From a bacterium (GTDB lineage: Bacteria; Patescibacteriota; Microgenomatia; UBA12405): DNA of 43,684 bases. Of the stretch, positions 9,365 to 34,943 are shown piece after piece. The position numbers and the translations under genes were made by a program. Numbering within the stretch: the first letter of the stretch is position 1; the number at the start of each line of letters is the position of its first letter. The notes beneath the pieces were generated by a model that had not been told where the DNA came from, made no database searches, and saw only the letters and a list, made by a program, of their open reading frames with translations. The DNA is taken from contig JAKQJL010000014.1 of the NCBI GenBank assembly GCA_029561175.1, forward strand, positions 1-43,684. The letters are read 5' to 3'.

Positions 9365-10113
9365 AATTTAGATCTGACTAAAAAAGAATGAAAACTCATA
9401 CCTAAAGCCATAATTATGCCAGGAAGACCGTCGATAAAACCAAGTTTAAAAATATAATTAACAAAAAATTTTGCTAATGGATAGATGACTATTTCAAAAA
9501 TGTTAGTTCTTTTTTGTCGATCAAATAATTCTTGGGCGCGGATTGAAGAATAGTAGTTTATTTTTGAAAAAAATTCATTTAAGTTTTGGTGGGGAAAGTG
9601 ATTGATGGTATAGGCTAATCGAATGTGGCAACATGATGATTTCCAAACTTCATGTACTTTTCCAAAAAAAGAACCATTCTTTTTATTAAATAATCGAAGG
9701 AATCTTTGGTGACGATTTTCACCGTGCATTAATATTTTTCCTAAAAAATAATCGTTCCTAAAAAAAGAATAATTAGAGCCTTGAAAATCGAAATTGTTAA
9801 TAAAATTAAGAAGTTCTTCTGATGGGGTTTCGTCTGGGTCTATCCAAAAAATCCAATTATTAGTAGCAAGGGATATACCAAAATTTCTTTGGGAAGAAAA
9901 ATCGTTATCCAACCCCCTACTTTTAGAAATTACTTTTAAATCTTTAGATTCAAGTTTTTTCAATTTCTCAACAGTATCATCAGTGGAATTGTCATCGATA
10001 TTTACTATTTCATTAATTGCTGGACAAAGACTAAGCCATTCCTGTAGAACATCAACATTTTCAGATTCATTTTTGGTTAAGTATAAAAGAGAGATTTTAT
10101 TTGAGTTGACCAT
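9340..10113 (-). CDS. GT2 family glycosyltransferase
   Basis: TKNES, IDDNSTDDT, FSSQRNFG, WIDPDE, GKVHE, FIDGLPG. Confidence 0.92.
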   Translation of the reverse strand: MVNSNKISLLYLTKNESENVDVLQEWLSLCPAINEIVNIDDNSTDDTVEKLKKLESKDLKVISKSRGLDNDFSSQRNFGISLATNNWIFWIDPDETPSEELLNFINNFDFQGSNYSFFRNDYFLGKILMHGENRHQRFLRLFNKKNGSFFGKVHEVWKSSCCHIRLAYTINHFPHQNLNEFFSKINYYSSIRAQELFDRQKRTNIFEIVIYPLAKFFVNYIFKLGFIDGLPGIIMALGMSFHSFLVRSKLWHLQSTK

Positions 10114-11179: not shown

Positions 11180-11216
11180 AATGTAATAATAATTACAAAA
11201 GAGTATTATTTAATTA

Positions 11217-23070: not shown

Positions 23071-23416
23071 ATGGATGATTTTGAGCAAAATCAATTAAGG
23101 TTAATTGTTTGCCTATTATATTAGCTTTTTTTGAAAGATTTTGTAAGACAACAAATTGAGTATAAATATTTTTTTGGGTAGAAAAAATAATCTTTGTTGA
23201 ATTATCAGAAAATTCAATTTCATTTAAAAATGGACGAAAAACAAGATTTTGATAATTAAAATTTAATTTTGATGAGGTTAATTTAAATATTTGAATTTTT
23301 GAAGAAAAATCTGATGGTTGATTTTTTAAAGTGATTTTAGAGGTGTTTAAATATAGAAATAATTGAATAATAATGATCAATAACGGAAAAACAAAAAGAA
23401 AGTTATACCATTTCAT
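23048..23416 (-). CDS. minimal FtsQ-like membrane protein (positional)
   Basis: one TM; located between murG and ftsA; C-terminal LIDFAQNHP resembles the FtsQ YIDLR..P end; only 122 aa. Confidence 0.55.
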   Translation of the reverse strand: MKWYNFLFVFPLLIIIIQLFLYLNTSKITLKNQPSDFSSKIQIFKLTSSKLNFNYQNLVFRPFLNEIEFSDNSTKIIFSTQKNIYTQFVVLQNLSKKANIIGKQLTLIDFAQNHPYATFKNN

Positions 23417-24464
23417 AAAATAGTTTAAAAAATGGATGAATAGCTGAACTGGGTTTAAAATTTACTTGGTTGTTTACTTTTGATAAACGAAGAATTGAAT
23501 TAACTAATTTAGTAGAAGTGAGCTGATCTTGGTTAATGATAATAATGTTGTTAGGTGATTTGTTTTGTAGCCAGTTGGCATTGAGTTGTTGTTCGTTTTG
23601 TTGACTAAAAGGTAGGGGTATTAAAATAGCTTTTTGATTAAAAGTGAAAATTTCAAAACAAGTGTTGGCACCTGCTCGTCCGATAATTAAGTTGGCATGT
23701 TTAAAAATCCAACCAATATCTTGAGAAGAGATATATTCAGTTTGGTAGTAACGAGAGTGATGATAATTTTGAATGATGTTTTTATTTTTACCAGTTTGAT
23801 GAATGATGGTAAAGTTGGTTAGTTTTGAAAGAGAATTAATCAGATGTTGGTTGATAATCGCCGAACCTTGATTGCCGCCAGTAATATAGATAAGAGGGTA
23901 TTTTTTTATTTGCTTTTGAAGAGGGTTAAAAGTAGATCGGTTGGTTTGATATAGTTGTTGTCTGACTAAATTACCAGTAACTATAGTTTTTGAAGGTGGC
24001 AAATTGTTTTTAGTATCAAAAGAAAGAGCGATTTTATTAACAAACAATGAACAAATTTTGGTGGTTAAGCTAATAGTTAATGTTTGTTCGTGAATAATTG
24101 ATTTAATTTGATTAACTCTTGAAGCGATTATTACAGGAACTGAAACGTAACCTCCAAAAGAAACAACCAGATTTGGCTTAATTTGCCTAATTAAATAAAA
24201 ACTCCTAAAAAAAGAAAATAAAGTTAATGGGATACCTTTAATAGTGTTAAACAAAGAAATTCGATCGAGTTTACCACTGGGTATATTAATAATTTGAATA
24301 TCTTTTTTTTTAAAAACAGGATCGTCAAGATGATTGTCTGAAGAAAATTTATGAGTTAAATAAAAAATTTTCCAAGAAAAATGAGTGTCTTGACGAAGGT
24401 GATTGATTAGTTCAATGGCTGGAGTGTGATGAACTCCGGTGATGATGATGGTTTTGTTGATCAC
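23403..24464 (-). CDS. murG: lipid II GlcNAc transferase MurG
   Basis: ITGVHHTPA, SFGGYVSVP, IHEQ, TGN, TGGNQGS, GRAGANT, EQQLNA; GTG start. Confidence 0.93.
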   Translation of the reverse strand: MINKTIIITGVHHTPAIELINHLRQDTHFSWKIFYLTHKFSSDNHLDDPVFKKKDIQIINIPSGKLDRISLFNTIKGIPLTLFSFFRSFYLIRQIKPNLVVSFGGYVSVPVIIASRVNQIKSIIHEQTLTISLTTKICSLFVNKIALSFDTKNNLPPSKTIVTGNLVRQQLYQTNRSTFNPLQKQIKKYPLIYITGGNQGSAIINQHLINSLSKLTNFTIIHQTGKNKNIIQNYHHSRYYQTEYISSQDIGWIFKHANLIIGRAGANTCFEIFTFNQKAILIPLPFSQQNEQQLNANWLQNKSPNNIIIINQDQLTSTKLVNSILRLSKVNNQVNFKPSSAIHPFFKLFYEMV

Positions 24465-25548
24465 TGTTTTTTAAGTATAACAATTGTTGTTGTCGGTGAA
24501 TATTGGCGACAACTCCTAAACCTAAATATAAACTTACTAAAGAAGAACCGCCGTAAGAAATAAAAGGTAGTGGCATTCCGGTTAGAGGAATTATTGAAGT
24601 AATTGCCCCAAGATTAATTAAAGCTTGAAAAGCAATCCAGAGGCTGATTCCGATAGTAAATAGCTGAGTTGAGTGGTCGGTAAGAGTGTTTGAGAAATTA
24701 ATCAGATGACTAACTAAATACAAATAGGCAAGACAGATGATTAACATACCAATAAATCCTGTTTCTTCACCAATAACAGCAGCAATTGAATCAGTAGATA
24801 CTTTAGGTAGAAACATATATTTTTGATCTGAATTAGCGAAACCTTTACCAAAAATATGGCCTGAAGCCAGGCTGACAATTAGCTGGTTGCTGTGGTAAGC
24901 CTGAGTTGATTGTGGGTTGATTAGTGATTGAAGTCTTTTTAGACGGTATGGTGAGGTAATGGTTAAGATAATACCTAAAAATAAGGCAATAACACCGATA
25001 ATAAAAATAGATTTGATATCACCATTGGCTAGATAAAAAAGAAAAATCGAAATTGTGGCAATTAGAATGGTAGTACTTAGGTTTGGTTCGATAATGATTA
25101 AGAAAAGACCAATTACTAAAGGAATAAAAAAGTGTTTTAAATTAACATTTTTAGTGAGAATGTTGGAAAAATAAAGTATTGAAGTAAATTTAAAAAGTTC
25201 TGATGGTTGAACTCCAAAGAAACCAAAATTTAACCATCGATTGGCACCTAAGATTTTTAATCCAAACTGAGGAATGACAACTAAAAAAAGTAAGAAGAGA
25301 GAAAAATAAAATAATATCGGGGAAAATTTTTTAATTAAAGAATAATCAAGATATCGAATAATAAAAAAAATAGAGAGACCGATTAATGACCAGATTAATT
25401 GTTTTTTGGCGATGCCAAAGCTTACTCCAGTTAAGTTGATAGATTCGAATGGTGAGCTGATTGATAAAAATACTAGACCGATAAAATTTAAGAAAAATAA
25501 GTAACCAAAAATGTGCCAAAAGGATATTGGTTTATTGTTTGTGGTCAT
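24412..25548 (-). CDS. ftsW: SEDS family cell division protein FtsW
   Basis: GANRWL, QPSE, EPNLST, SPYRLKRL, LPKVSTD, PLTGMPLPFISYGGSS; upstream of murG. Confidence 0.93.
   Translation of the reverse strand: MTTNNKPISFWHIFGYLFFLNFIGLVFLSISSPFESINLTGVSFGIAKKQLIWSLIGLSIFFIIRYLDYSLIKKFSPILFYFSLFLLFLVVIPQFGLKILGANRWLNFGFFGVQPSELFKFTSILYFSNILTKNVNLKHFFIPLVIGLFLIIIEPNLSTTILIATISIFLFYLANGDIKSIFIIGVIALFLGIILTITSPYRLKRLQSLINPQSTQAYHSNQLIVSLASGHIFGKGFANSDQKYMFLPKVSTDSIAAVIGEETGFIGMLIICLAYLYLVSHLINFSNTLTDHSTQLFTIGISLWIAFQALINLGAITSIIPLTGMPLPFISYGGSSLVSLYLGLGVVANIHRQQQLLYLKNSDQQNHHHHRSSSHSSH
24474..24482 (-). promoter_or_regulatory. putative internal extended -10 promoter for murG inside the ftsW 3' end
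   Basis: TGTTATACT 9 nt before the murG GTG. Confidence 0.45.
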
Positions 25549-26653
25549 TTAGCAATTTGTTGATGTAAACCTCAGGAATTTCTTGAAAATTTTCGGGTTG
25601 ATCGACCAATTGATGATCAAAATTATATTGGTAAATAGTGGTTTGTTGTTTGTTTTTAAGATTAAGTTGGGCACCTATTAATTCTTGATTAAACCGTTGA
25701 TTTTCTTGCTGATCAGAAATATTAAAATTATGAGGGATAAATGAAAGAAGATGAAAATAAAAAAGTGGGTTGAGCGATGCTTGAATCTCAAGCTGAGTGT
25801 AAAAACTAAAAGAAGCAGTTAAACGAGGATTGCACTCTAAAAGATAAACTTTATTTTGGTTTACAAAAAAGTCTAAACCAAAAAAACCTCGATAATGATT
25901 TTCTTTTAAGATTTCTCCAAAAGAATTAGTAATTTCAAGAACTTGTGATTTTATAGACGAACTAATATTTGCAGGCCATTGACGGCCAACGGTGGTGAAT
26001 GGATTATCAGTAAGTTTTTTAATACCAGTAAATTGAAGTGCTGGTGGACTTTGAAAAAGATGTGAATCAACTAGACAGCAATTATTTAAAAGAGTGTATC
26101 CTGACAAATAGGGTGAAATTTTAATTGGAGTATTGTCGGGGAGCAGTGGTTGAAAATTTTTAAGAAAAAAAGTTGAATTACCTGCCCAACCAAAGTGACT
26201 TTGAATAACTAGAGGGGTTTGAAATTTTTCAAAAGCTTGATTAATGTTATCAGAGGTAAAGGTGGTAATTAAGTGCGGAATAATTGGGATGTTTTTTAAT
26301 GAACAAATTGTGGGAAATTTAATTTTATCTTCAAAAAAACGATTAAGCTTGCTGGAATTGGCGGCGTAAATCCATTGATATTTTTGACAAATTTTCTCGA
26401 TTTTACCAGATGGTTTAAAAGGAATAATTATATTTTTCTTATTAGTTGAGTTAGCCAAATTTTGAAGATAATCAATTGTTTTTTGGTTTTCTATAAAGAC
26501 CCCTGTATTTTTTAAAGATAAGTTTATTTTTAAAGTTATAGGGGAAATTGAATAGAAGTTTGGTAACTGAGGAAGATTAATATCTAAGAATTGATCCAGA
26601 CAAAGATAGACAAAATTATAAGGTAATGATGAGAGATAACTTAGTAAATTCAT
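25532..26653 (-). CDS. ATP-grasp domain ligase of unknown specificity
   Basis: FEDKIKF, PLVIQSHFGWAGNSTFF, YRGFFGLDFF, LLECNPR (ExNxR); lacks the Ddl N-terminal GGxSxE motif. Confidence 0.82.
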   Translation of the reverse strand: MNLLSYLSSLPYNFVYLCLDQFLDINLPQLPNFYSISPITLKINLSLKNTGVFIENQKTIDYLQNLANSTNKKNIIIPFKPSGKIEKICQKYQWIYAANSSKLNRFFEDKIKFPTICSLKNIPIIPHLITTFTSDNINQAFEKFQTPLVIQSHFGWAGNSTFFLKNFQPLLPDNTPIKISPYLSGYTLLNNCCLVDSHLFQSPPALQFTGIKKLTDNPFTTVGRQWPANISSSIKSQVLEITNSFGEILKENHYRGFFGLDFFVNQNKVYLLECNPRLTASFSFYTQLEIQASLNPLFYFHLLSFIPHNFNISDQQENQRFNQELIGAQLNLKNKQQTTIYQYNFDHQLVDQPENFQEIPEVYINKLLNDHKQ

Positions 26654-27450
26654 CTTTTAATGCCAGTAACAATTATTAATGGATAATCTCCGATATTAAG
26701 TGATTGGCTAACTTTCTTAAGGCCTGCTAAGGCTAACCCGGCTTCTGGAGAAACAAAAAGCTGATTATCAAGTAGTTCTTGATAACAGGATTTAACTTCA
26801 GAATCGTTAACCACAACTCCCCCACCATGATTTTTTAAGAGAGAAATAATTTTTTGTTTATTGGGAAGTAACTTTACAGATAAAGCATCGGTAATGGTTT
26901 TCATTTCAGAAGTGTAATCTTGATCAAAATAACTACAAATTGGACAAGAAGATGCCGGTTGGACACCAAAAAGTTTGATATTTTTGGGAAGATTTTTTGA
27001 TATTCCTAATAGAGTGGTGCCACTGCCGATAGGTAAAAAAATACTAGTTACTTGAGGTAGTTGAGTTAAAATGTCGATGGTTATCTTCTGGTAACCGATT
27101 TGAGCGTTGGGATCGGTGGATTGGCGAAGAAAAAAAGCCTGGTTTTGTTTGGCGTATTTAAAAGCTGAACTATTAGGTTGAGTTGTTTTAGTAACTTGAG
27201 ATTTAATCAAACTTAGTTTTGAAGCTGAAATATGAGGAGATACAAAAACCTGAAGTTCTAAATTTAATTGACGGCAAAAATAATCTGCTGAAATAGCGGC
27301 ATTTCCTGAAGAAGCAATTACGAATTTTTGGTAACCGAGTTTAATAGCTTGATTGATTTGAAAAGGGATGGCACGATCTTTGGCAGAGCCAGTAATATTT
27401 TGATCTTCGCGAAGATAATAAATATTTTTTATTTTGGTAATTGGAATCAT
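26650..27450 (-). CDS. fold-type II PLP-dependent enzyme, threonine synthase-like
   Basis: REDQNITGSAKDR (PLP Lys), ASSGNAA, PIGSGTT, SPEAGLALAG, terminal VTG; short (266 aa). Confidence 0.85.
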   Translation of the reverse strand: MIPITKIKNIYYLREDQNITGSAKDRAIPFQINQAIKLGYQKFVIASSGNAAISADYFCRQLNLELQVFVSPHISASKLSLIKSQVTKTTQPNSSAFKYAKQNQAFFLRQSTDPNAQIGYQKITIDILTQLPQVTSIFLPIGSGTTLLGISKNLPKNIKLFGVQPASSCPICSYFDQDYTSEMKTITDALSVKLLPNKQKIISLLKNHGGGVVVNDSEVKSCYQELLDNQLFVSPEAGLALAGLKKVSQSLNIGDYPLIIVTGIKR

Positions 27451-27487
27451 AGATGCGATATTTGATTATATATGTTATATATAGATT

Positions 27488-27643
27488 ATGGAAACAAAAA
27501 TTCTTTGTCCCGATTGTCAAACAGAAATAAAATTTGAAAAAATCGAGGTTGGTGATATTTTAGAATGTGATGAGTGTGGTACTGAAGTAGAAATTATTTC
27601 AGTTGAACCATTGAAGTACACTTTATTGGTTGAGGAGAAGTAG
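27488..27643 (+). CDS. LysW-like zinc-ribbon (amino-group carrier-like) protein, 51 aa, C-terminus EEK
   Basis: hand-translated METKILCPDCQTEIKFEKIEVGDILECDECGTEVEIISVEPLKYTLLVEEK; CxxC..CxxC with LysW-type spacing, acidic; below the ORF-track size cut-off. Confidence 0.85.
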   Translation: METKILCPDCQTEIKFEKIEVGDILECDECGTEVEIISVEPLKYTLLVEEK

Positions 27644-28180
27644 TCGGAAAAAGCCTTCTTTAAATTGTTCTTGATCTTGATTGATGTCGATTTGGCCGTA
27701 ATGAACTCCATGATTACTTAAACTGCTGTGGACATAGATTATTTGTTGATCAATTTTTTCAATAACAAATAAAACGTGATGACCTCGTTTTTGGCGGATT
27801 AAGTCTCCTGTTTTAACATCATTAATGTTAACTTTTTTTGATAAAGGAGAAGACGTGAGCATGTTAGCGTTTGTTCTTCGAACATTCAGTTGGGCATCGA
27901 AATAAAAATTTAACAACTGACAACATAGACCTGAACAATCAATTCCTAAATGATGTTTCTTTTGAAAGCGATAAATTTGATTTGAATCTAGTTCGAGTAT
28001 TTTTACTCCTTCTTGGTTGGCCAATTCGACTGTTTTTAGAGCAATTTCTTTGGCGTTTCCTTTACCTACCAAAGAAGCTTCTGGAGAACTGTTTTTATGT
28101 TTACCGGTATTCATAAAGTAAGGAATACCAATATACTTTGAAATTTCTTGTTTTAGTTCGGTTAATTTAATCCCAGCCAT
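27623..28180 (-). CDS. NlpC/P60-like cysteine peptidase, no signal peptide
   Basis: YIGIPY, GIDCSG, GDLI..HHVLFV..YVHSS (Cys-His-His); ATG 28180 overlapping the mraY end preferred over 28216. Confidence 0.78.
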   Translation of the reverse strand: MAGIKLTELKQEISKYIGIPYFMNTGKHKNSSPEASLVGKGNAKEIALKTVELANQEGVKILELDSNQIYRFQKKHHLGIDCSGLCCQLLNFYFDAQLNVRRTNANMLTSSPLSKKVNINDVKTGDLIRQKRGHHVLFVIEKIDQQIIYVHSSLSNHGVHYGQIDINQDQEQFKEGFFRLLLLNQ

Positions 28181-29196
28181 AGACCTAAAATTGCTAATAT
28201 AAAACCAGCCAACCAAGCTCTAAAGACAATTTTTGGTTCTTCCCAACCATTTCTTTGAAGAGTTAGATGGATTGGAGCAGCTGGGAAAATTTTTCGATGT
28301 AAATAGAGTTTTGAAAAGATTTGAATAGCACTGCTTAAGCCTTCGATAATAAAAATGAATCCAACCACAAGTAAGGGAATTAGTTTTCCTAAAAGAATCG
28401 CAATTAAGGCAAAAGTGGCACCAAAAGACATTGATCCCACATCACCTAACCAAATTCGAGCTGGATAAACATTGAAATATAAAAAAGCAATTAGTGCACC
28501 AATCCATAAGGCTAAAAACAAAGAAATAGGAGTGTCGAGCTGGTTGCTTGAGAGTACCCAAAAAGCAAAAAGTGAAATCATTAAAGTTCCGCAAGATAGA
28601 CCATCAAGACCATCGGTAATATTAAAAAAATTAGCAAAACCGACAATAATTGTGGTAAAAATGGGGATAGAAAATAATCCCAAAGAGACTGGACCCAAAA
28701 AAGGTAGATAGACAAAATTTATACCTAATCGAAAATAAATATGAGCTGAAACTATACCGGCAATTACGAACTGCAAGAGTAGCTTGTGTTTCATTCTTAA
28801 TCCAAAAAAACCAGATTTTTCAAAATTAAAGAATTTTAAAGCATCATCGTATAAACCCAGTAATCCAAAACTGATAAAGGTGAAAAAGATGGCTTCAACT
28901 TCTCGTTGAATTTGAAAGTTATGAGAAATAAAAATATTTGATTGCTGAAGAATAAAAAAAAGAATTGTAAAAAGAACTGTGACTGACACAATAATTAATA
29001 AGCCACCTCCCACTGGTGTACCGGCTTTAATCGCGTGATATTTATCAAAAATCGGAGTTCTTTTGTTTTGAAAATCAAGAGTTTTTTGCTTTTGGCGTTG
29101 GAATTTAAGATGATAGAGAATGTTAATAAAAGGAACAACCAAGACACTGGTGCAAATGAAAGAAAAAAGAAGCAGGCCAAGATAAAATTGGATCAT
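28162..29196 (-). CDS. mraY: phospho-MurNAc-peptide transferase MraY
   Basis: KAGTPVGGG, GLYDD, NITDGLDGL, PARIWLGDVGS, APIH..GWEEPKIV. Confidence 0.96.
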   Translation of the reverse strand: MIQFYLGLLLFSFICTSVLVVPFINILYHLKFQRQKQKTLDFQNKRTPIFDKYHAIKAGTPVGGGLLIIVSVTVLFTILFFILQQSNIFISHNFQIQREVEAIFFTFISFGLLGLYDDALKFFNFEKSGFFGLRMKHKLLLQFVIAGIVSAHIYFRLGINFVYLPFLGPVSLGLFSIPIFTTIIVGFANFFNITDGLDGLSCGTLMISLFAFWVLSSNQLDTPISLFLALWIGALIAFLYFNVYPARIWLGDVGSMSFGATFALIAILLGKLIPLLVVGFIFIIEGLSSAIQIFSKLYLHRKIFPAAPIHLTLQRNGWEEPKIVFRAWLAGFILAILGLWLGLN

Positions 29197-29205
29197 TATT
29201 GATTA

Positions 29206-29211
29206 AGTATA
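29206..29211 (-). promoter_or_regulatory. putative -10 box for mraY
   Basis: TATACT 9 nt before ATG; lies in a 17-mer shared with the lemA upstream region. Confidence 0.5.
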
Positions 29212-29212
29212 G

Positions 29213-30511
29213 TTAAATTTTAGTAAAAGTCGAGATTATACGGTTTAGAGTGTCTAAACCCTTTTTACCTCCGGAACTAAAATGGACCAAAATGTCTTGA
29301 GGTTTAAGATTGTTTTGGTAATAGTCAATTATTTGTTGGTAATCTGGCAGGTAAGTTATTTTTTTACCTAATTCTAGGTGATAATCTTGAAAAGTAGTTC
29401 TTTGGTCAACAGAAACTGATGGGGAAAATTTTATTTTACTAATAGTTATTTGGGATGCGTTTTTAAACGCCTGATTAAAACCAATTATCGAATTTTTATT
29501 TTGTAAAAAGGAAGCGTGAGGTTCAAAAAAAACTTTAATTTGGTGAGTGGGATATTGATAGTGAATTGCTTCTAAGGCTGAGGCAATTCGATCTTTAGAT
29601 TGAGCAAAATCGTCGATAAAAATAATATTATTAATGATTTTTTTGATTTCTAATCTGCGCTTAATACCACGGTAATGATTTAAAGCTGATTGAATGATTT
29701 TTGGTTTAATTCCTAAGGCGATGGCCATAGTAGTGGCTGCCATAACGTTTTCCTGATTGTGTTTACCAACTAAACAAGAATTAAAAGAAAAATTAAAATT
29801 ATAAGGAAGAGCCTGTGAGTAATTCTTAGAAATTTCTGTGGCTGATGGAGAATTTGGGTTATAAACTAAAATGCCATTTTTAGGTAATCGATTGATAAGT
29901 TTAATAAATGATTGTTTGTTTGAGCTTTGGGAAGGATAGGATTCTTTATGTTCCCAGTCGGCTGAAGTTAATAATAAATGGGTTAGCGGGTAATAATGAA
30001 ATTTTGCTTGAGTATCGAGACCATTAATAGATTCATCGGCTTCAATAATTGAATAGTCCCCAGTACTAGTGGTTAAAGAGGGAAGATGATTAATAAAACT
30101 GGCACCAACCATATAACTAGGGTTGAGTTTGGCATATTTAAAAATCCAGATTAATAATGAGGTGATGGTTGATTTTCCATAAGATCCAGCGACTAAAATG
30201 TTGATTTTTTTATCTAAAAGCTGACTTAGGTACTCAGTGGCGGATATATAAGGATAGTGGTTTTTAGTAATTAAAGCGAATTCTTCTTGACATTTGGTAA
30301 ATGATTTAAACGAAGAACCGATAATAAATAGGTCAATTTTTTGATAATCTATGACTTTATTAACAGGAATTTTGGATTTTAAAAGAATGGTGCTTATAGG
30401 AGGATAAATTTGATCTTGATCTGATCCAGATATTTGGTGGCCAAGTCGAGTTAATTCTAAAGCTAAAGGTGTGGTCATGTTGCCAGCGATTCCTAAAATA
30501 TGAATTCTCAT
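29213..30511 (-). CDS. Mur ligase, Mpl/MurC-like (closer to murein peptide ligase Mpl)
   Basis: MRIHILGIAG..GSDQDQIYPP, VAGSYGKST, IEADE, GIKRRLE, DDFAQ, FSSGG; ATG 30511 forms an ATGA overlap with the upstream stop. Confidence 0.82.
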   Translation of the reverse strand: MRIHILGIAGNMTTPLALELTRLGHQISGSDQDQIYPPISTILLKSKIPVNKVIDYQKIDLFIIGSSFKSFTKCQEEFALITKNHYPYISATEYLSQLLDKKINILVAGSYGKSTITSLLIWIFKYAKLNPSYMVGASFINHLPSLTTSTGDYSIIEADESINGLDTQAKFHYYPLTHLLLTSADWEHKESYPSQSSNKQSFIKLINRLPKNGILVYNPNSPSATEISKNYSQALPYNFNFSFNSCLVGKHNQENVMAATTMAIALGIKPKIIQSALNHYRGIKRRLEIKKIINNIIFIDDFAQSKDRIASALEAIHYQYPTHQIKVFFEPHASFLQNKNSIIGFNQAFKNASQITISKIKFSPSVSVDQRTTFQDYHLELGKKITYLPDYQQIIDYYQNNLKPQDILVHFSSGGKKGLDTLNRIISTFTKI

Positions 30512-31098
30512 AATTGTTGCCAATGATTATTTTGATAATATTCAAAACCAGGAAGGTTTCTTTTGTAATAACCGATTTTTTTATCAAGATCGAATCTACC
30601 CAAATAACAAAAATCTAAATTATTATTGGCACTATCAATGATTGTTTCAATTACCATTCTGATGGGTAAATCCTGATGAGCAAAATCTGGATTATAAAAA
30701 ACATAGGCAATATGGGAAAATTTTTGATGATAATAGCAAATGGCATAGCCAACTATTTGATCTTTAAGTTTCCAAATAAAAAGTTGATTAAAAATATGGT
30801 GATTAAAGATATATTTAACAGAACTAATTGGAAAATCCCAGCCTAAATTTTTAATCCAATGATGAATAGTTTTTTGAGTAGACAAATCGAAGGAAAAATC
30901 TGCCAAATTTATTTTTTCAAAAGAAAAATCAGTGGTTTTTCTAATGATGCGACGATTTTCAGAAGAAAGAGTAAATTGTGAGAGATTAGATCGACAACTT
31001 GATTCTTGATAGAAGAGTTGACGATCGTTACGTTGAGGTAGTAATCCTTGCTGGTATAAAGATTGATAATCTTGAGTTGCGAGAATATTGAATGTCAT
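30508..31098 (-). CDS. ATE1/Bpt-like aminoacyl-tRNA-dependent transferase (GNAT-like fold)
   Basis: SCRSNLSQFTLSSENRRIIRK and AYVFYNPDFAHQDL...LDFCYLG...YYK match ATE_N/ATE_C patterns; ATGA overlaps at both ends. Confidence 0.68.
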   Translation of the reverse strand: MTFNILATQDYQSLYQQGLLPQRNDRQLFYQESSCRSNLSQFTLSSENRRIIRKTTDFSFEKINLADFSFDLSTQKTIHHWIKNLGWDFPISSVKYIFNHHIFNQLFIWKLKDQIVGYAICYYHQKFSHIAYVFYNPDFAHQDLPIRMVIETIIDSANNNLDFCYLGRFDLDKKIGYYKRNLPGFEYYQNNHWQQL

Positions 31099-32339
31099 TG
31101 ATTTAATTTTAATCTAAAAGCAGTTCTAAAAGCTTCGGCATCTGACCAGGGGTATTCAGTATTACCCAATAAAATAGTAGTTTCGTGGCCTTTACCGCAA
31201 GCAACAATAGTATCGTGAGGTTTAGCAAGACTAATTGCTTGGTTAAAAGCTTCTTGACGGTTGGGGACATTATAATAAGAAAAGAGTTGTTTTTTAACTT
31301 TTGATTGATTGATACCATTGATTATCTGTTGGTTTATATCTTCAATTTTTTCATTTCGAGTATCATCAGAGGTAATGAAAGCGATGTTTGACAATTCGGA
31401 AACTACTTCTCCCATTAAGGGTCTTTTTGATTGATCCCGGCCACCGGTAGCGCCAAAAATAACAATTAATCTACCTGAAGTAGTTTCTCTTAATGATAAT
31501 AAAGTTTGTTTTAATGCTGCTGGAGTATGAGCAAAATCAACAATAGTTCTAATATTTAGATCGTTTTCAATATTTTGTCGACGACCTTTTGTTTCTGGAA
31601 ATTCAAGAATATTTTTGGCAACTAATTGATGATCAATATTTAGATCAGTTAACAAAGAATAGGCTGCCAGAATATTGTAAGCTTGATATTGATATGGAGA
31701 ATTGGTGATTATTTGTTTTTGATTAACTAAAAAACTTAGAGATTTTGGGGTTATTTTAAGATTTTTAGCTTGGAAATCTGATTTGGTATTAAGACTATAG
31801 GAAATTAATTTTTTAGAATCAAAAATGGATTTAATGGTTTTGGCAGAAGAATCGTCTTGATTAAAAATAATTTTGGAAGAATTTTTTAATAGTTTTAATT
31901 TGGCTTCTAAGTATTCTTTTTGAGAGGGAAAATCATCTAAATGTTCATGAGATAAATTGGTAAAAATTCCATAATTAAATTTAAACCCAAAAAATCGAAA
32001 TTGATCGAGACCGTGTGCGGTGGTTTCAATAACGGCATATTTTTTACCTTCTTTTTTCATTTTAATAAGAATAGGAAGGAGGTTCTTGGGATGAGGAGAA
32101 GTGGTGTGTAATCCGGGGCTATTGATGGTGTTAATTGAAAAAGATGGAAAACCAAGACGATTTAATAATTCATCAATGAGAACGGTGGTGGTGGTTTTAC
32201 CATCAGTTCCAGTGACGCCAATTAAGAAAAAATGACGTTGAGGAAAGCCATAACGAAGAGAATAAAATAGGCTATTTGGTAAATGCCAACAGTAATTCTT
32301 TATTTTTTGGAAAAGGTATTTAATCCAAATATTAGGCAT
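31095..32339 (-). CDS. murE: MurE-like ligase lacking the N-terminal domain
   Basis: GVTGTDGKTTT, FTNLSHEHLD, VDFAHTP, RDQSKRPLMG, CGKGHE; specificity motif DDTR. Confidence 0.9.
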   Translation of the reverse strand: MPNIWIKYLFQKIKNYCWHLPNSLFYSLRYGFPQRHFFLIGVTGTDGKTTTTVLIDELLNRLGFPSFSINTINSPGLHTTSPHPKNLLPILIKMKKEGKKYAVIETTAHGLDQFRFFGFKFNYGIFTNLSHEHLDDFPSQKEYLEAKLKLLKNSSKIIFNQDDSSAKTIKSIFDSKKLISYSLNTKSDFQAKNLKITPKSLSFLVNQKQIITNSPYQYQAYNILAAYSLLTDLNIDHQLVAKNILEFPETKGRRQNIENDLNIRTIVDFAHTPAALKQTLLSLRETTSGRLIVIFGATGGRDQSKRPLMGEVVSELSNIAFITSDDTRNEKIEDINQQIINGINQSKVKKQLFSYYNVPNRQEAFNQAISLAKPHDTIVACGKGHETTILLGNTEYPWSDAEAFRTAFRLKLNQ

Positions 32340-32344
32340 ATTTT

Positions 32345-32353
32345 ATTATATCA
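32345..32353 (-). promoter_or_regulatory. putative extended -10 promoter for murE-ATE-mpl, overlapping the ftsI stop
   Basis: TGATATAAT-AAAAT-ATG. Confidence 0.55.
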
Positions 32354-33869
32354 GATTTGAAATTATTGATGCCAGGTCAAACCAAATTGGGGCAGCGGTA
32401 CTAGAACCCCAAGGAGAAGATTTGGGGTTGTCAACAGTGACGACCATGGTTGCTTTTGGCTGATTACAGGGAAAAAATCCAATATATGAAGCCATAGTTT
32501 GATTGTTGGTGTAATTACCACCAAGGGCAACCTGTGCAGTACCTGATTTTCCACAAGCTTCAAAATTTTTTGATTTAAATTGAGCCACTGCTCCCTCTTC
32601 AACTCCGTATTTTAAAATTTCTTTTAAAGACTCAGTGGTTTTAGAAGAAAAAATCGGAAGATTGTTGGTTTTAATTTGAGTTGATAAATGTGGAGTGACT
32701 AAATAACCATTATTAGCTAAAGTGTTGAAGGTTCGGATTAATTGAATTTGAGTTAAAGCGAATCCTTGACCAAAAGAGGCTGTAGCTAAATCAATTGGAG
32801 ACCAATATTTTTTTTCAATTGGTCTTGATTCACCGGGAAGATCAATGCCGCTTTTTTGGTTGATTTCTAATTTGTCAAAATATTGCAAAAAATTATCTTT
32901 TCCAATAAGTTTGATAATTTCACTCATTGAAATATTATCAGAGTATTTAATAGTATCTTTTAAATTGGCGTGAGGGTGAAAAGTATTATCCCAGTTAGAG
33001 ATTTGGTTGTCTCCTATTTGATAAGGTTGTGAACATTGGGTGCACTGATAATTTAGATCAATAGCTTTTGATTCTAAGCCTATGGCAATGGTAATTGGTT
33101 TGAAAACTGATCCTGGTTCAAAAAGATAACTATGCTCTCGGTTGGTGGCGGTAATTCCTGAAGGTGTGGCTTCAAAGCTAGCCATAGCAATAATTTCTCC
33201 GTTTGAAGGATTTAAAATGATAGCCGAAACGGCATCGGCTTGATATTTAGTTAAACCAGTTTTTAAAGATTTTTCTAAGATAGATTGAATGGTTTTGTTT
33301 AAAGTAACTTTAAGATCTTGTCCTGAATTTGCTTTTGACTGAAGGTTGGTGATTAAGCTGCGATTTAGAGCATCTTTCTTTTCCCAAGTATATTTGGTTT
33401 TACCAGCAAGGAAATTTTGATAATAGTTTTCTAAACCATTAATAATTGGAATGGCTAATTGGTTTGGGTAGAATCTGGTGAACTTTGTTTCCCAAATGAA
33501 CCCTTTTTCTTGATTGTTAAGATAGAAATTATAGTCAAAATGATCTTTGAGAGTAATCCATTTCTGTTTGGGGTTATTAATAAAAGAATCGAGGTTGGGA
33601 AATTTAGTTTTTAAAGATTCAAGGTCTTTAATCTCTGGTTTATATAGTGAAAGTTGATAGTATAATTCATTTCCAGCCAGTAAACTGTTATCTTGAAAAT
33701 AAATATTACCTTTTTGTCCGGTTTTAATTGAAGGCTTAATTAATTGATTTGTGGCTTGAAGATTAATAGCGTCGAACTTGATAATTTGCCAATAGAACAT
33801 TCTAAAGATAATGGCAAAAAAACAAACGACGATAGTTACTTTAACTGATTTAATTCTTAAGGGTGGCAT
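32346..33869 (-). CDS. ftsI: class B penicillin-binding protein (FtsI/PBP3)
   Basis: TM, FEPGSVFK (SxxK), SDN, SFGQG, GKSGTAQ; dcw position. Confidence 0.9.
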   Translation of the reverse strand: MPPLRIKSVKVTIVVCFFAIIFRMFYWQIIKFDAINLQATNQLIKPSIKTGQKGNIYFQDNSLLAGNELYYQLSLYKPEIKDLESLKTKFPNLDSFINNPKQKWITLKDHFDYNFYLNNQEKGFIWETKFTRFYPNQLAIPIINGLENYYQNFLAGKTKYTWEKKDALNRSLITNLQSKANSGQDLKVTLNKTIQSILEKSLKTGLTKYQADAVSAIILNPSNGEIIAMASFEATPSGITATNREHSYLFEPGSVFKPITIAIGLESKAIDLNYQCTQCSQPYQIGDNQISNWDNTFHPHANLKDTIKYSDNISMSEIIKLIGKDNFLQYFDKLEINQKSGIDLPGESRPIEKKYWSPIDLATASFGQGFALTQIQLIRTFNTLANNGYLVTPHLSTQIKTNNLPIFSSKTTESLKEILKYGVEEGAVAQFKSKNFEACGKSGTAQVALGGNYTNNQTMASYIGFFPCNQPKATMVVTVDNPKSSPWGSSTAAPIWFDLASIISNLI

Positions 33870-34077
33870 TGATTGGTTTTAAATTTGTGTTTTTTGGTTG
33901 ATTCAAAAGTTCCGATTCTTTTAATAAGTTTTGAAGTTCATGGTTTAGTTTAGAGTATTGAGAAGATAAATCCTTGTAATATTGGTCAATAATAGCGATT
34001 TTATTTGAATAATAGATAGAAAAGATTAACTGAAAAACGATGGTAAAAAAACAAATAAAATAATAGAGACGAATCAT
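33850..34077 (-). CDS. FtsL-like small membrane coiled-coil protein (positional)
   Basis: TM plus Leu-heptad coil, between rsmH and ftsI, overlapping both. Confidence 0.6.
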   Translation of the reverse strand: MIRLYYFICFFTIVFQLIFSIYYSNKIAIIDQYYKDLSSQYSKLNHELQNLLKESELLNQPKNTNLKPINATLKN

Positions 34078-34943
34078 GATTCTATTATTTCATATCCACG
34101 TAGAATTGCCGAGCGCGAAGGAGGATTGATTTTTATCTCAGAAAATGAAGGTTTAATTGGTTTAATAAGAAGATTCTTTACTTTGGATTGGTTAATAAAG
34201 TTTTTTACAATTCGATCTTCCCCAGAATGAAAAGTAATAATGGCAATTTTTGTTAAAGGCTGAAGCTTGAGAGTTGATATTAGAGCTTGTTTTAAGTTTT
34301 GGTATTCTTGATTAACTTCAATTCTTAAGGCCATAAAAACTTTGGTGGCTGGGTGAATTTCTGAACGACGATGATTGTTTTGGTAAGTATTTTTAATAAT
34401 TTCAGCTAACCTAGAGGCTGAAGTAATTGGTTTTTGTTGTCGCTGATGAATAATATCTTTGGCTATTTGAACTGATAATAATTCTTGAGAATAATAAGAG
34501 AATAGTTCTACTAATTGTGATTGATCATAAGTATTAACTATTTCTTGGGCAGTTAAAGATGTGTTTGGATTTAATCTCATATCTAAAAGATCATCTTTGA
34601 AAGAAAAACCAAGATTATAATTAAGAATTTGATTAGTACTTAAGCCTAAGTCAAAAAGAATGCCGTTGATGGGTTGATTAATTTGGGAAGATATATTTTC
34701 AAGTTGATTGAAATTAGATAATAAAGGATGAAATTTAGTGGAAAGATTTGACTCTGAGATTCTTTGAGTAGCTGTTTCTAAGTTTTGTTGATTGGTGTCA
34801 ATCCCCCAAACAATAGATCCGTGTTTAAGCAATTCAAGAGTGTGACCACCATTACCAAGAGTGGCGTCGATAAAAACTTGATCTTTTTGAGGTTGAAAAA
34901 AATCAATTACTTCCGAAAGTAAGACTGGATAATGATAATTCAT
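34074..34943 (-). CDS. rsmH: 16S rRNA m4C1402 methyltransferase RsmH
   Basis: HYPVLL, DATLGNGGH, FDLGLS, LDMR, HPATKVFMALRIEVN, FHSGEDRIVK, NPPSRSA. Confidence 0.96.
   Translation of the reverse strand: MNYHYPVLLSEVIDFFQPQKDQVFIDATLGNGGHTLELLKHGSIVWGIDTNQQNLETATQRISESNLSTKFHPLLSNFNQLENISSQINQPINGILFDLGLSTNQILNYNLGFSFKDDLLDMRLNPNTSLTAQEIVNTYDQSQLVELFSYYSQELLSVQIAKDIIHQRQQKPITSASRLAEIIKNTYQNNHRRSEIHPATKVFMALRIEVNQEYQNLKQALISTLKLQPLTKIAIITFHSGEDRIVKNFINQSKVKNLLIKPIKPSFSEIKINPPSRSAILRGYEIIES

What the first reader, a model, noticed from the sequence alone, without database searches (positions are those of the whole stretch)
25532..32339. Rewired dcw cluster: candidate carrier-protein/tRNA-dependent peptidoglycan stem-peptide pathway
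Seen: the order is rsmH-ftsL-ftsI-murE-[ATE-like]-[Mpl-like]-mraY-[NlpC/P60], then [LysW-like] on the opposite strand, then [PLP enzyme]-[ATP-grasp]-ftsW-murG-ftsQ-ftsA-ftsZ. ATGA overlaps join murE/ATE, ATE/Mpl and PLP/ATP-grasp. NlpC/P60 overlaps mraY and the ATP-grasp gene overlaps ftsW. Established: the canonical order is murE-murF-mraY-murD-ftsW-murG-murC-ddl, so the extra genes sit in the murF and murD slots. LysW-type proteins, ATP-grasp ligases, fold-II PLP enzymes and aa-tRNA transferases are all tools for building peptides or unusual amino acids. Inference: the stem peptide is pre-assembled (possibly on the LysW-like carrier) or remodelled from scavenged host peptides, trimmed or released by NlpC/P60, and attached en bloc by the Mpl-like ligase. 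This would be an alternative cell-wall chemistry.
Basis: partly seen in the sequence, partly recalled or inferred. Interest (0 to 1): 0.92.

Follow-up and report, generated by a model that had tools for sequence, protein, structure and literature searches.

The report
MurD-less peptidoglycan precursor pathway in Patescibacteria
A cell-wall gene cluster of a tiny uncultured bacterium lacks two of the standard enzymes that build the wall's peptide stem and instead carries a tRNA-dependent transferase, a peptide-loading ligase and a small carrier-protein module, which points to an undescribed way of making an otherwise universal bacterial structure.

Summary
The window comes from a Shapirobacteria-like Patescibacterium (698 kb, 83% complete).

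- **What the genome has and lacks.** It has murA, murB, murE, murF, ddl, mraY and murG. No MurD, no canonical MurC, no Asp/Glu racemase and no alanine racemase were found.
- **Module M1: an ATE1/Bpt-fold aminoacyl-tRNA transferase homologue plus an Mpl-like ligase.**
  - The Mpl-like ligases form one clade, separate from canonical MurC.
  - The two genes are repeatedly fused into one protein.
  - In a 400-genome sample of the phylum, all 18 genomes with the transferase lack MurD, against 312 of 401 genomes with MurD overall. Two of those 18 are single-contig genomes.
- **Module M2: a LysW-like zinc ribbon, a ThrC-like PLP enzyme and an ATP-grasp enzyme.**
  - The only invariant residue of the zinc ribbon is its C-terminal lysine.
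  - M2 is separable from M1. It also occurs beside a divergent MurD, and one M1 genome lacks it.
- **NlpC/P60.** This peptidase appears cytoplasmic and is not specific to the system.
- **Best reading.**
  - The transferase makes the L-Ala–Glu bond from Ala-tRNA, and the Mpl-like ligase loads the preformed peptide on UDP-MurNAc.
  - M2 probably supplies residue 2 through a carrier-bound intermediate.
  - All chemistry is inferred.

The parts
31095..32339 (-). murE (414 aa), lacking the N-terminal UDP-binding domain
   Evidence: TIGR01085 scores 296 bits against a cut-off of 257. The match begins at model position 77-97. Its stop overlaps the start of the ATE-like gene.
30508..31098 (-). ATE/Bpt-like aminoacyl-tRNA transferase homologue (196 aa), part of module M1
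   Evidence: Sequence hits are weak: PF04377 at E 9e-4 and NCBIfam arginyltransferase models at 1e-7. The AlphaFold2 model has pLDDT 95.3. Its best Foldseek matches are ATE1 (E 2e-8, TMq 0.75), FemX, MprF, Sbb17/Sba18 and L/F-transferase. All 18 phylum genomes carrying it lack MurD.
29213..30511 (-). Mpl-like UDP-MurNAc ligase (432 aa from the ATG at 30511), part of module M1
   Evidence: All three Mur ligase domains are present. BLASTP gives 148 bits over the full length against E. coli Mpl and 72 bits over part of the length against E. coli MurC. It falls in a clade of 30 sequences separate from canonical MurC. It shares motifs with Mpl. It is fused to the ATE-like domain in L054, L080 and 9 further proteins.
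28162..29196 (-). mraY
   Evidence: PF00953 scores 103 bits and TIGR00445 scores 158 bits.
27623..28180 (-). NlpC/P60 cysteine peptidase with no recognisable signal peptide; an accessory gene, not specific to the system
   Evidence: PF00877 scores 27.9 bits. G, C and G of the G-x-D-C-S-G site are invariant, and D, S and the histidine are at least 90% conserved, in 21 sequences. It is fused to the Mpl-like ligase in L072. It is also present in MurD-bearing relatives.
27488..27643 (+). LysW-like zinc-ribbon protein (51 aa) ending in an invariant C-terminal lysine, part of module M2
   Evidence: PF21344 scores 43 bits. A family profile hits Thermus LysW 3wwl at E 6e-12. The C-terminal lysine is the only invariant column in 33 sequences. 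It lies on the strand opposite its neighbours in 15 of 15 near loci.
26650..27450 (-). ThrC-like fold-type II PLP enzyme (266 aa), part of module M2
   Evidence: PF00291 scores 134 bits. The lysine K24 and the S-S-G-N loop are conserved. A family profile scores best against threonine synthases (118 bits), with Ser/Asp racemases at about 90 bits. It is fused to the ATP-grasp enzyme in L085.
25532..26653 (-). ATP-grasp ligase (373 aa) of an uncharacterised family, part of module M2
   Evidence: PF02655 scores 26 bits and NCBIfam PRK06524 scores 83 bits. The invariant residues are E108, K110, D261, E273 and N275. The model has pLDDT 96, and the nearest solved folds are PurK and biotin carboxylase at TM about 0.6.
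23403..25548 (-). ftsW and murG, the downstream flank of the cluster
   Evidence: TIGR02614 scores 287 bits and TIGR01133 scores 185 bits.
32346..34943 (-). ftsI, a small ORF at the ftsL position, and rsmH: the upstream flank
   Evidence: PF00905 and PF01795 hit ftsI and rsmH. The small ORF has no family hit.

Best explanation
The cluster encodes a route to the UDP-MurNAc-peptide that needs neither MurC nor MurD.

**Module M1** (ATE-like transferase plus Mpl-like ligase) is inferred to work in two steps.
1. The transferase moves L-alanine from Ala-tRNA onto the free alpha-amino group of glutamate. The glutamate may be D-Glu, free, or already linked through a carboxyl group. This is the one stem-peptide bond that an L-aminoacyl-tRNA donor can make, and the ATE family normally takes N-terminal Glu or Asp as acceptor.
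2. The Mpl-like ligase attaches the preformed peptide to UDP-MurNAc, as Mpl does with recycled tripeptide.

MurE and MurF/Ddl would then finish the pentapeptide, and MraY and MurG proceed as usual.

**Module M2** (LysW-like protein ending in Lys, ThrC-like PLP enzyme, ATP-grasp enzyme) is a separable accessory. It is inferred to provide residue 2.
1. The ATP-grasp enzyme ligates a carboxyl group of glutamate to the epsilon-amino group of the carrier's terminal lysine.
2. That leaves the alpha-amino group free, so the PLP enzyme can epimerise or otherwise modify the bound residue.

The cytoplasmic NlpC/P60 may release or trim gamma-glutamyl-linked intermediates.

**Shown:** gene content, linkage, fusions, folds and phyletic patterns. 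**Inferred:** every substrate and every reaction.
For: **1. Gene complement**
- The own genome has only three Mur-ligase genes: murE, the Mpl-like gene and murF.
- murA, murB and ddl are present.
- No Asp_Glu_race and no Ala_racemase_N were found.

**2. Relatives in the same order**
- The ATP-grasp enzyme is in 36 of 41 genomes.
- MurD scores above its cut-off in only 3 of 41, all in family f2, which has the ATP-grasp enzyme in 0 of 4.

**3. Phylum sample**
- ATE-like is in 18 of 400 genomes. None of the 18 has MurD at E<=1e-45, while 312 of 401 genomes do.
- The 18 span families f37, f52, f62, f76, f112 and f150.
- Single-contig genome G232 has FolC, MurF, MurE and the Mpl-like ligase. Single-contig genome G348 has MurF, MurE and an ATE-Mpl-like fusion. 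Neither has MurD.

**4. Linkage survives rearrangement**
- The window order is murE-ATE-Mpl-mraY-NlpC-<LysW-PLP-ATPgrasp.
- Family f37 has ATPgrasp-NlpC-mraY-ATE-Mpl-<LysW-PLP.

**5. Fusions**
- ATE with Mpl-like: L054 (645 aa), L080 (688 aa), and 9 of the 11 long homologues found in public data.
- Mpl-like with NlpC/P60: L072.
- PLP with ATP-grasp: L085.

**6. The ligase is Mpl-like**
- 30 sequences form one clade (support 93/95), apart from 6 canonical MurC sequences (95/97).
- All 30 score higher against E. coli Mpl than against E. coli MurC.
- All 30 carry G-S/T-D followed by a hydrophobic residue, Y/F, P, P. This is the position of the Mpl-specific Tyr35 described in passages of PMC3060825. 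None of the 6 MurC sequences carries it.
- They also have an Mpl-length loop and an S-x-G-G motif in the C-terminal domain.

**7. The ATE-like model** matches only aminoacyl-tRNA transferases among the 27 Foldseek rows shown, of 103 matches at E<=0.001.

**8. The LysW-like protein**
- The C-terminal lysine is invariant in 33 of 33 aligned sequences.
- The divergent LysW/PLP gene pair is conserved across classes.
- The complex model of ATP-grasp, ATP and LysW-like scored ipSAE 0.56, with a best control of 0.02, rated 'weak support'.
  - In the tool's calibration, 58 of 80 solved complexes and 2 of 110 mismatched pairs reached the mark.
  - Only 7 of those 80 solved complexes, but both mismatches that passed, scored 0.60 or under.
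  - The three runs agree in at least 80% of contacts, and the partner's pLDDT is at least 75.
  - LysW complexes are solved, so the pass may reflect memory of those structures.

**9. Asp_Glu_race** occurs in 2 of the 23 genomes with a complete trio locus, against 162 of the other 377.
Against: - No biochemical data exist for any of these proteins.
- Every family-specific curated cut-off is missed: ATE_C, Bpt, murC, mpl, lysW and thrC.
- G096 has ATE-like and Mpl-like genes but no trio, even with a profile search. The trio also coexists with MurC and a divergent MurD in 7 loci. A carrier-bound acceptor is therefore not obligatory, and the role of the trio is the weakest part of the model.
- The f2 relatives have MurD but no Asp_Glu_race and no trio. 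Lack of MurI is thus common here and does not by itself call for a new D-Glu source.
- Four of the 36 trio-bearing relatives do have an Asp_Glu_race gene.
- The PLP enzyme is closer to threonine synthases than to the known fold-II racemases.
- The ATP-grasp enzyme resembles PurK and biotin carboxylase, not LysX or RimK.
- BLAST against the E. coli pair does not separate canonical MurC well: 3 of 5 canonical sequences score equal or slightly higher against Mpl.
- In the tree, E. coli Mpl joins MurC weakly (84/82) rather than joining clade B.
- Related genomes are not independent, so the anticorrelation may rest on few evolutionary events.
- The own genome is only 83% complete.
Confidence: 0.45

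Rival explanations
1. Salvage variant. These host-dependent cells take D-Glu-containing fragments of host peptidoglycan. The cytoplasmic NlpC/P60 trims them. The ATE-like enzyme re-adds L-Ala to gamma-D-Glu-X fragments where needed, and the Mpl-like ligase reloads the peptide on UDP-MurNAc, as in E. coli recycling. The trio is unrelated to this step.
For: - The ligase shares Mpl-specific features.
- NlpC/P60 is adjacent to mraY, lacks a signal peptide on inspection, and is fused to the Mpl-like ligase in L072.
- No Glu or Ala racemase was found in the own genome.
- G096 has ATE-like and Mpl-like genes without the trio.
Against: - MurE, MurF and Ddl are all retained. That is unnecessary if tri- to pentapeptides were reloaded whole.
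- NlpC/P60 is missing from the cluster in three loci of families f5 and f6, and it is present in MurC/MurD genomes.
- No importer was examined.
Confidence: 0.2
2. The ATE-like protein is a Fem-type transferase that adds a side-chain (bridge) residue to the diamino acid at position 3. The Mpl-like protein is merely a divergent MurC that adds L-Ala. Residue 2 is added by a non-homologous enzyme, for example the ATP-grasp ligase sitting in the murD slot.
For: - FemX is among the structural matches (rank 7, TMq 0.56).
- The ATP-grasp and PLP genes occupy the canonical murD position between mraY and ftsW.
- ATP-grasp and Mur ligases both use acyl-phosphate chemistry (established knowledge).
Against: - The trio coexists with MurD in 7 loci. 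It is absent from G096, which also lacks MurD. The ATP-grasp enzyme therefore cannot be the general replacement for MurD.
- ATE-like tracks the loss of MurD perfectly (0 of 18 with MurD) and is repeatedly fused to the ligase. A bridge-adding enzyme would not be expected to behave this way.
- Clade B carries Mpl-type motifs.
Confidence: 0.12
3. The trio is a branch or modification system analogous to the enterococcal D-aspartate ligase with its racemase. The PLP enzyme makes a D- or non-standard amino acid, and the ATP-grasp enzyme attaches it to a lysine epsilon-amine or to the alpha-carboxyl of D-Glu in the precursor. The LysW-like protein acts as a regulator or substrate mimic, not as a carrier.
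For: - The PLP and ATP-grasp genes overlap and are fused in L085.
- A PLP profile hits Ser and Asp racemases at about 90 bits.
- The trio occurs with either way of installing residue 2.
- The D-Asp ligase precedent is recalled, not retrieved.
Against: - The invariant C-terminal lysine and the conserved pairing with the PLP gene argue for an active-site role of the tail.
- The complex prediction gave only weak support either way.
- Nothing links the trio to position 3.
Confidence: 0.12
4. Artefact. MurD and MurC are present but were missed, either because the assemblies are incomplete or because the genes have diverged strongly. The extra genes would then be unrelated passengers.
For: The own genome is 83% complete and lies in 43 contigs.
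Against: - Two single-contig genomes (99-100% complete) and G011, G018, G058 and G096 have only MurE, MurF and the Mpl-like ligase (plus FolC in G232), as found by a domain search that detects all Mur ligases.
- The order and the fusions are conserved across classes.
Confidence: 0.03

Closest known systems
[quoted passage not shown]
   Same: - Three-domain Mur ligase.
- Full-length 27% identity to E. coli Mpl.
- Shares the N-terminal G-S-D...Y-P-P motif at the Tyr35 position, an Mpl-length loop after E-A-D-E, and the S-x-G-G motif in the C-terminal domain.
- Predicted to load a preformed peptide.
   Different: - Scores 154 bits against the TIGR01081 cut-off of 389.
- Forms its own clade.
- The S-G-P motif and the F-F-D-K-R-S-K sequence are not kept.
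- It is the only MurC/Mpl-type enzyme in the genome, so it is biosynthetic rather than a recycling extra.
- It is coupled or fused to a tRNA-type transferase.
ATE1/Bpt and the L/F aminoacyl-tRNA-protein transferases; the FemX/MurM peptidoglycan transferases
   Same: Same fold. The predicted chemistry is the same: aminoacyl transfer from tRNA to a free amine. The ATE family's preference for an acidic N-terminal acceptor (established knowledge) fits glutamate.
   Different: - 196 aa, without the N-terminal Cys-rich region; the match starts near model position 75.
- Below all curated cut-offs.
- Predicted to make a backbone bond of the stem peptide rather than tag proteins (ATE/Bpt) or build the cross-bridge (Fem).
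LysW/LysX amino-group carrier protein system of lysine and arginine biosynthesis
   Same: Homologous zinc-ribbon globular domain. It is paired with an ATP-grasp enzyme and has a short acidic tail.
   Different: - The tail ends in an invariant Lys, not the C-terminal Glu of LysW (recalled).
- The partner ATP-grasp enzyme is not of the RimK/LysX family.
- No LysY-type dehydrogenase is found in the genome.
- The context is dcw, not amino-acid biosynthesis.
- The implied polarity is reversed: the carrier offers an amine.
MurD2/MurL alternative pathway of Xanthomonas (passages of PMC8788868 read)
   Same: It is another departure from the MurI-plus-MurD route for residue 2 in bacteria that lack a D-Glu-forming gene. 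In it, L-Glu is attached first and epimerised afterwards at the expense of ATP.
   Different: That pathway keeps a MurD-type ligase acting on UDP-MurNAc-L-Ala and uses MurL. Here no MurD homologue is present, and the enzyme families involved are entirely different.
D-aspartate ligase with aspartate racemase of Enterococcus faecium, and the YkfC-type cytoplasmic gamma-D-Glu-diamino-acid peptidases (both recalled, not retrieved)
   Same: A racemase-like enzyme is paired with an ATP-grasp ligase acting on a lysine epsilon-amine. A cytoplasmic NlpC/P60 acts on free murein peptides.
   Different: No sequence relationship was shown here. The lysine in question belongs to a 51-residue protein.

Membership tests
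Mpl (TIGR01081) | Score at or above the curated NCBIfam cut-off (388.7 bits) | tested here: not met
   153.6 bits. Other clade B members score 151 and 232 bits.
Mpl (TIGR01081) | Mpl-specific residues named in PMC3060825: Tyr35 in the N-terminal domain; the S-G-P motif; Tyr182 with the (S/T)AFFDKRSK loop; C-terminal-domain residues including S-N-G | tested here: inconclusive
   - Tyr35 position: Y or F in 30 of 30 clade B sequences, absent from 6 of 6 MurC.
- Loop: Mpl-like in length with D-x-x-x-K-F kept, but the F-F and Tyr182 are not kept in the window protein.
- S-G-P: reads S-A-T in the window and S-Y-P in another subclade.
- C-terminal domain: S-x-G-G is kept.
Mpl (TIGR01081) | Ligates a preformed peptide to UDP-MurNAc | not testable with these tools
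   Inferred only from the likeness to Mpl, the fusions, and the absence of MurD.
MurC (TIGR01082) | Score at or above the cut-off (335.1 bits) and grouping with canonical MurC | tested here: not met
   186.3 bits. Canonical Patescibacterial MurC sequences score 358 and 425 bits. Clade B is separate from MurC in the tree.
ATE/Bpt aminoacyl-tRNA-protein transferase (PF04376/PF04377) | Sequence score at or above the Pfam and NCBIfam cut-offs; presence of the N-terminal ATE_N region | tested here: not met
   PF04377 scores 20.3 bits against a cut-off of 25. The best Bpt model scores 31.8 bits against 205. The match starts near model position 75, and there is no ATE_N hit.
ATE/Bpt aminoacyl-tRNA-protein transferase (PF04376/PF04377) | Fold of the catalytic domain | tested here: met
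   The model has pLDDT 95.3. Human, yeast and K. lactis ATE1 are the top Foldseek matches (E 2e-8 to 7e-6, TMq up to 0.77).
ATE/Bpt aminoacyl-tRNA-protein transferase (PF04376/PF04377) | Uses aminoacyl-tRNA as donor | not testable with these tools
   Every structural neighbour among the 27 Foldseek rows shown uses aminoacyl-tRNA. This is an inference.
LysW amino-group carrier protein (PF21344, TIGR01206) | Zinc-ribbon globular domain | tested here: met
   PF21344 scores 43.1 bits against a cut-off of 27. The profile hits 3wwl at E 6e-12 and 5k2m at 2e-10. The four Cys are at least 90% conserved. TIGR01206 scores 43.7 bits, below its cut-off of 53.2.
LysW amino-group carrier protein (PF21344, TIGR01206) | C-terminal glutamate as the attachment site; a LysX/ArgX (RimK-family) partner; LysZ/Y/J/K enzymes | tested here: not met
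   - The C-terminal residue is Lys in 33 of 33 sequences.
- The adjacent ATP-grasp enzyme has no RimK hit.
- No Semialdhyde_dh is found in the genome.
- The two RimK-family genes of the genome lie on contig C24, in a different gene context.
Threonine synthase | NCBIfam ThrC equivalog cut-offs; full-length N-terminal region | tested here: not met
   The best model scores 77.6 bits against a cut-off of 358, and the match starts at model position 66. The PLP-binding lysine and the phosphate loop are present.
NlpC/P60 (PF00877) | Domain score; catalytic Cys and His | tested here: met
   27.9 bits against a cut-off of 23. The catalytic Cys of the D-C-S-G motif is invariant, and the histidine is at least 90% conserved.
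FemXAB | Two-domain protein of about 330 aa acting on UDP-MurNAc-pentapeptide or lipid II | tested here: not met
   The protein is a single domain of 196 aa. FemX matches at TMq 0.56 and TMt 0.35.

The most novel reading that the evidence does not exclude
The first three residues of the stem peptide are assembled off the nucleotide sugar, on a reversed-polarity carrier protein.
1. The ATP-grasp enzyme loads L-Glu by a carboxyl group onto the C-terminal lysine of the LysW-like protein.
2. The ThrC-like PLP enzyme epimerises the bound residue.
3. The ATE-like enzyme alanylates it from Ala-tRNA.
4. The N-domain-less MurE adds the diamino acid.
5. NlpC/P60 releases the peptide.
6. The Mpl-like ligase loads it en bloc on UDP-MurNAc.

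This would be a ribosome-independent, tRNA- and carrier-protein-dependent peptidoglycan peptide assembly line.
Probability: 0.1. Interest if true: 0.95.

Novelty: new variant of a known kind. Interest (0 to 1): 0.85.

Why it matters
MurC and MurD are treated as universal, essential steps of peptidoglycan synthesis and as antibiotic targets.

- **A replaced core step.** A widespread group of Patescibacteria keeps the rest of the pathway but has replaced these two ligases with a tRNA-type transferase and an Mpl-type peptide ligase. That would be a second way to build the core of the stem peptide.
- **A new role for tRNA-dependent transferases.** Until now such enzymes were known in the wall only for cross-bridges.
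- **Evolution of recycling.** It would bear on how wall recycling (Mpl) and wall synthesis evolved from one another.
- **A new carrier type.** The LysW-like protein with an invariant C-terminal lysine would be the first carrier of this family with reversed polarity.
- **Testability.** All predictions can be tested directly with recombinant proteins.

Tried and rejected
- **ATP-grasp plus PLP pair as the MurD replacement.** This was my first idea, from the anticorrelation seen. I rejected it because the trio sits beside a MurD in 7 loci of other classes and is absent from the MurD-less genome G096.
- **N-terminally short MurE as evidence for off-nucleotide assembly.** Dropped. The MurE matches of MurD-bearing f2 relatives also start late in the models (position 65-90).
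- **NlpC/P60 as a core part.** Rejected.
- **PLP enzyme as a simple replacement for alanine racemase.** Not supported. Ala_racemase_N is present in 15 of 41 relatives, many of which also have the PLP enzyme.
- **Lone ATP-grasp homologues in 11 loci.** They lie in unrelated contexts (9 of the lone-ATP-grasp loci were inspected) and were set aside as paralogues.
- **Sequence and fold searches of the ATP-grasp enzyme.** They gave only generic PurK, biotin-carboxylase and CPS matches, and the Atlas gave unnamed 'biotin carboxylase-like' clusters. No functional lead came from them.
- **Single-sequence and profile PDB searches of the ATE-like protein.** They gave only weak GNAT hits.
- **Promoter scan around the LysW-like start.** No more sites than the shuffled controls.
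- **Literature.** Seven searches found no description of this system. I saw listings only, except for passages of PMC12419801, PMC8871954, PMC8788868 and PMC3060825. PMC3268129, an ATP-grasp survey that might bear on the trio, is not held. No supplementary files were consulted.

Full report
**What is in the window**

Positions 20.6-35 kb hold a minus-strand dcw cluster.
- The order is rsmH, a small ORF at the ftsL position, ftsI, murE, an ATE-like gene, a MurC/Mpl-like ligase, mraY, NlpC/P60, a plus-strand LysW-like gene of 51 codons, a fold-II PLP enzyme, an ATP-grasp enzyme, ftsW, murG, a small ORF at the ftsQ position, ftsA and ftsZ.
- The two small ORFs have no family hit and are named by position only.
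The ATE/ligase ATGA overlap was read directly.
- Titles of related contigs place the organism among Candidatus Shapirobacteria, in the Microgenomates group of Patescibacteria.

**The rest of the genome**

The assembly is 698 kb in 43 contigs and 83% complete.
- It has exactly three genes with a Mur-ligase middle domain: murE and the MurC/Mpl-like gene in the window, and murF on contig C36 next to a clear ddl (329 bits against a cut-off of 243).
- murA and murB are present.
- No Ala_racemase_N and no Asp_Glu_race were found.
- So MurF and Ddl are not replaced. What is missing is MurD and a canonical MurC.

**Relatives in the same order**

- The ATP-grasp protein is found in 36 of 41 genomes, including the own genome. 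Family f1 has it in 23 of 24; family f2 in 0 of 4.
- MurD above its curated cut-off is found in 3 of 41 genomes, all in f2.
- I fetched twenty 20-kb loci. All 15 that hold the ATP-grasp gene show the window's gene order.
  - The LysW-like gene is on the opposite strand in 15 of 15.
  - ATE-like and the ligase are present in 14 of 15. The fifteenth locus ends at a contig edge.
  - NlpC/P60 is present in 12 of 15.
  - In three loci of families f5 and f6, murF sits between the ligase and mraY, and NlpC/P60 is absent.
- Three of the four f2 loci have canonical murC and murD, and all four have murE and mraY. Three of the four have NlpC/P60. None has any of the other extra genes.
- Two relatives, G009 and G025, have lost most Mur ligases altogether.

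**The phylum**

The sample was 400 genomes.
- A homologue of the ATP-grasp enzyme occurs in 52.
- MurD occurs in 312 of 401 at E<=1e-45.
- ATE-like occurs in 18.
- Asp_Glu_race occurs in 164.
- None of the 18 ATE-like genomes is among the MurD-positive ones.

Forty loci around ATP-grasp hits, 20 from MurD-negative and 20 from MurD-positive genomes, resolve the picture into modules.
- **State B** is found in MurD-negative genomes. ATE-like, the ligase, LysW-like, PLP, ATP-grasp, usually NlpC/P60, and mraY lie together, but in a different order in other classes. An example is ATP-grasp, NlpC, mraY, ATE, ligase, then LysW-like on the opposite strand, then PLP.
- **State A** is found in 7 loci of MurD-positive genomes.
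  - Its fullest form is mraY, a divergent MurD, LysW-like on the opposite strand, PLP, ATP-grasp, ftsW, murG and then a canonical MurC, with no ATE-like gene.
  - The divergent MurD scores about 257 bits, and its match starts at model position 77-79. The canonical MurC scores 425 bits.
- **Lone ATP-grasp paralogues** occupy eleven loci, in unrelated contexts.
- **G096**, which is 100% complete, has ATE-like and the ligase after murG, three Mur ligases, no MurD, and no ATP-grasp enzyme of this family even by profile search.

So there are two separable modules. M1 is ATE-like plus the ligase, and it alone tracks the absence of MurD. M2 is LysW-like plus PLP plus ATP-grasp.

**Completeness is not the explanation**

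- G232 (one contig) has FolC, MurF, MurE and the ligase.
- G348 (one contig) has MurF, MurE and an ATE-ligase fusion.
- G011, G018 and G058 have three Mur-ligase genes each.

**Fusions**

- ATE-like is fused to the N-terminus of the ligase in L054 (645 aa, same order as the window) and in L080 (688 aa, another class).
- Of the 11 homologues of 474 aa or more in a 5.8-billion-protein collection, 9 carry the three Mur-ligase domains. One of them is named Mpl by its source, and one comes from a Taylorbacteria MAG.
- The ligase is fused to NlpC/P60 in L072.
- PLP is fused to ATP-grasp in L085, at a contig end.

**The ligase**

- NCBIfam puts it between murC (186 bits) and mpl (154 bits), below both cut-offs.
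- In a maximum-likelihood tree of 42 sequences, the 30 state-B ligases form one clade (93/95). The 6 canonical MurC sequences form another (95/97). E. coli Mpl joins MurC only weakly (84/82).
- BLASTP of the window protein gives 148 bits over the full length to E. coli Mpl and 72 bits over part of the length to E. coli MurC.
- All 30 clade-B sequences score higher to Mpl. The 5 canonical sequences score about equally to both.
- All 30 share with Mpl the N-terminal motif containing the Mpl-specific Tyr35 position, an Mpl-length loop after E-A-D-E, and an S-x-G-G motif in the C-terminal domain. The S-G-P motif and the exact loop sequence are not kept (the features come from passages of PMC3060825).
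- That paper also reports weak activity of Mpl on L-Ala-D-Glu.

**The ATE-like protein**

- Sequence evidence alone is weak.
- The model from a 25-sequence alignment is confident: pLDDT 95.3 and pTM 0.91.
- Among the 27 Foldseek rows shown (103 matches at E<=0.001), every solved neighbour is an aminoacyl-tRNA-dependent transferase, led by ATE1.
- The family has 117 representatives at E<=1e-30 and 350 at E<=1e-10 among 1.84 billion cluster representatives.

**Chemical logic (inference)**

- An aminoacyl-tRNA transferase needs a free amine as acceptor and donates an L-amino acid through its alpha-carboxyl group.
- Of the bonds in L-Ala-gamma-D-Glu-diamino acid-D-Ala-D-Ala, only L-Ala to Glu fits both conditions. 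It is also exactly the bond made by the missing MurD.
- The product has a free alanine amine. Loading such a peptide on UDP-MurNAc is the reaction of an Mpl-type ligase.

**Module M2**

- *LysW-like protein.*
  - It is a true homologue of the LysW globular domain.
  - Its only invariant residue is the C-terminal lysine: 33 of 33 aligned sequences, and all copies seen.
  - Canonical LysW offers a C-terminal glutamate (recalled).
- *ATP-grasp enzyme.*
  - It has the catalytic residues of the superfamily but belongs to no characterised family.
- *PLP enzyme.*
  - It keeps the PLP-binding lysine and the phosphate loop.
  - It is nearest to threonine synthases, with fold-II racemases next.
- *Inferred linkage.*
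  - A PLP enzyme needs a free alpha-amine. If the substrate is carrier-bound, it must therefore be attached through a carboxyl group to the lysine side chain.
- *Complex prediction.*
  - ATP-grasp plus ATP plus LysW-like scored 0.56, against 0.02 for the best control. The tool rates this 'weak support'.
- *Asp_Glu_race.*
  - It is rarer in genomes with a complete trio locus (2 of 23) than in the rest (162 of 377).
  - However, f2 relatives have neither the trio nor this racemase.
- *Overall.*
  - The role of M2 as supplier of residue 2 is therefore a reasoned guess.

**Verdict**

It is wrong about MurF and Ddl, and the carrier-based assembly is unproven.
- I found no description of the system in seven literature searches.

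Noticed in passing
G000 contig C24, locus L191 5010-9193: A separate ATP-grasp gene set: a 7TM_transglut membrane protein, an ATPgrasp_ST protein with a C-terminal Zn_protease-like region, and two RimK-family ATP-grasp proteins in a row. These are the only RimK-type enzymes in the genome, and they are not linked to the LysW-like gene.
   Followed up: partly
window 31095-32339, and MurE genes in L057-L060, L066, L186, L188: MurE in this group starts at about model position 65-105, so it lacks or has replaced the N-terminal UDP-binding domain. This holds both in MurD-less genomes and in MurD-bearing relatives.
   Followed up: partly
L060 (G025) and L061 (G009): Two near-complete relatives (97% and 94%) keep murE and mraY (G009 also murG) but show no MurC/Mpl, MurD or MurF match. 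This suggests ongoing erosion of the pathway.
   Followed up: no
L086, L088, L091, L093: The MurD next to the LysW/PLP/ATP-grasp trio is a divergent subtype. It scores about 257 bits against 340-430 for typical MurD, and its N-terminal roughly 110 residues do not match the murD model.
   Followed up: no
G000 contig C36, locus L002 904-2929: murF (minus strand) and ddl (plus strand) are divergent, and their starts overlap by about 30 bases. They lie beside rplA, away from the dcw cluster.
   Followed up: no
loci L105, L106, L116 and many others: Many public contigs that carry this Shapirobacteria-type cluster are titled 'uncultured Gammaproteobacteria', and one is titled 'Candidatus Methanoperedens'. 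These are likely mislabelled records.
   Followed up: no
window 8000-12000: G+C drops to 0.25-0.29, against about 0.32-0.37 elsewhere in the window. The ORFs there were not examined.
   Followed up: no
window 17878-20658 and 35625-36941: The dcw cluster is flanked by a class I aminoacyl-tRNA synthetase (926 aa) and a class II one (438 aa). Four tRNA genes lie at 5.3-14.8 kb.
   Followed up: no
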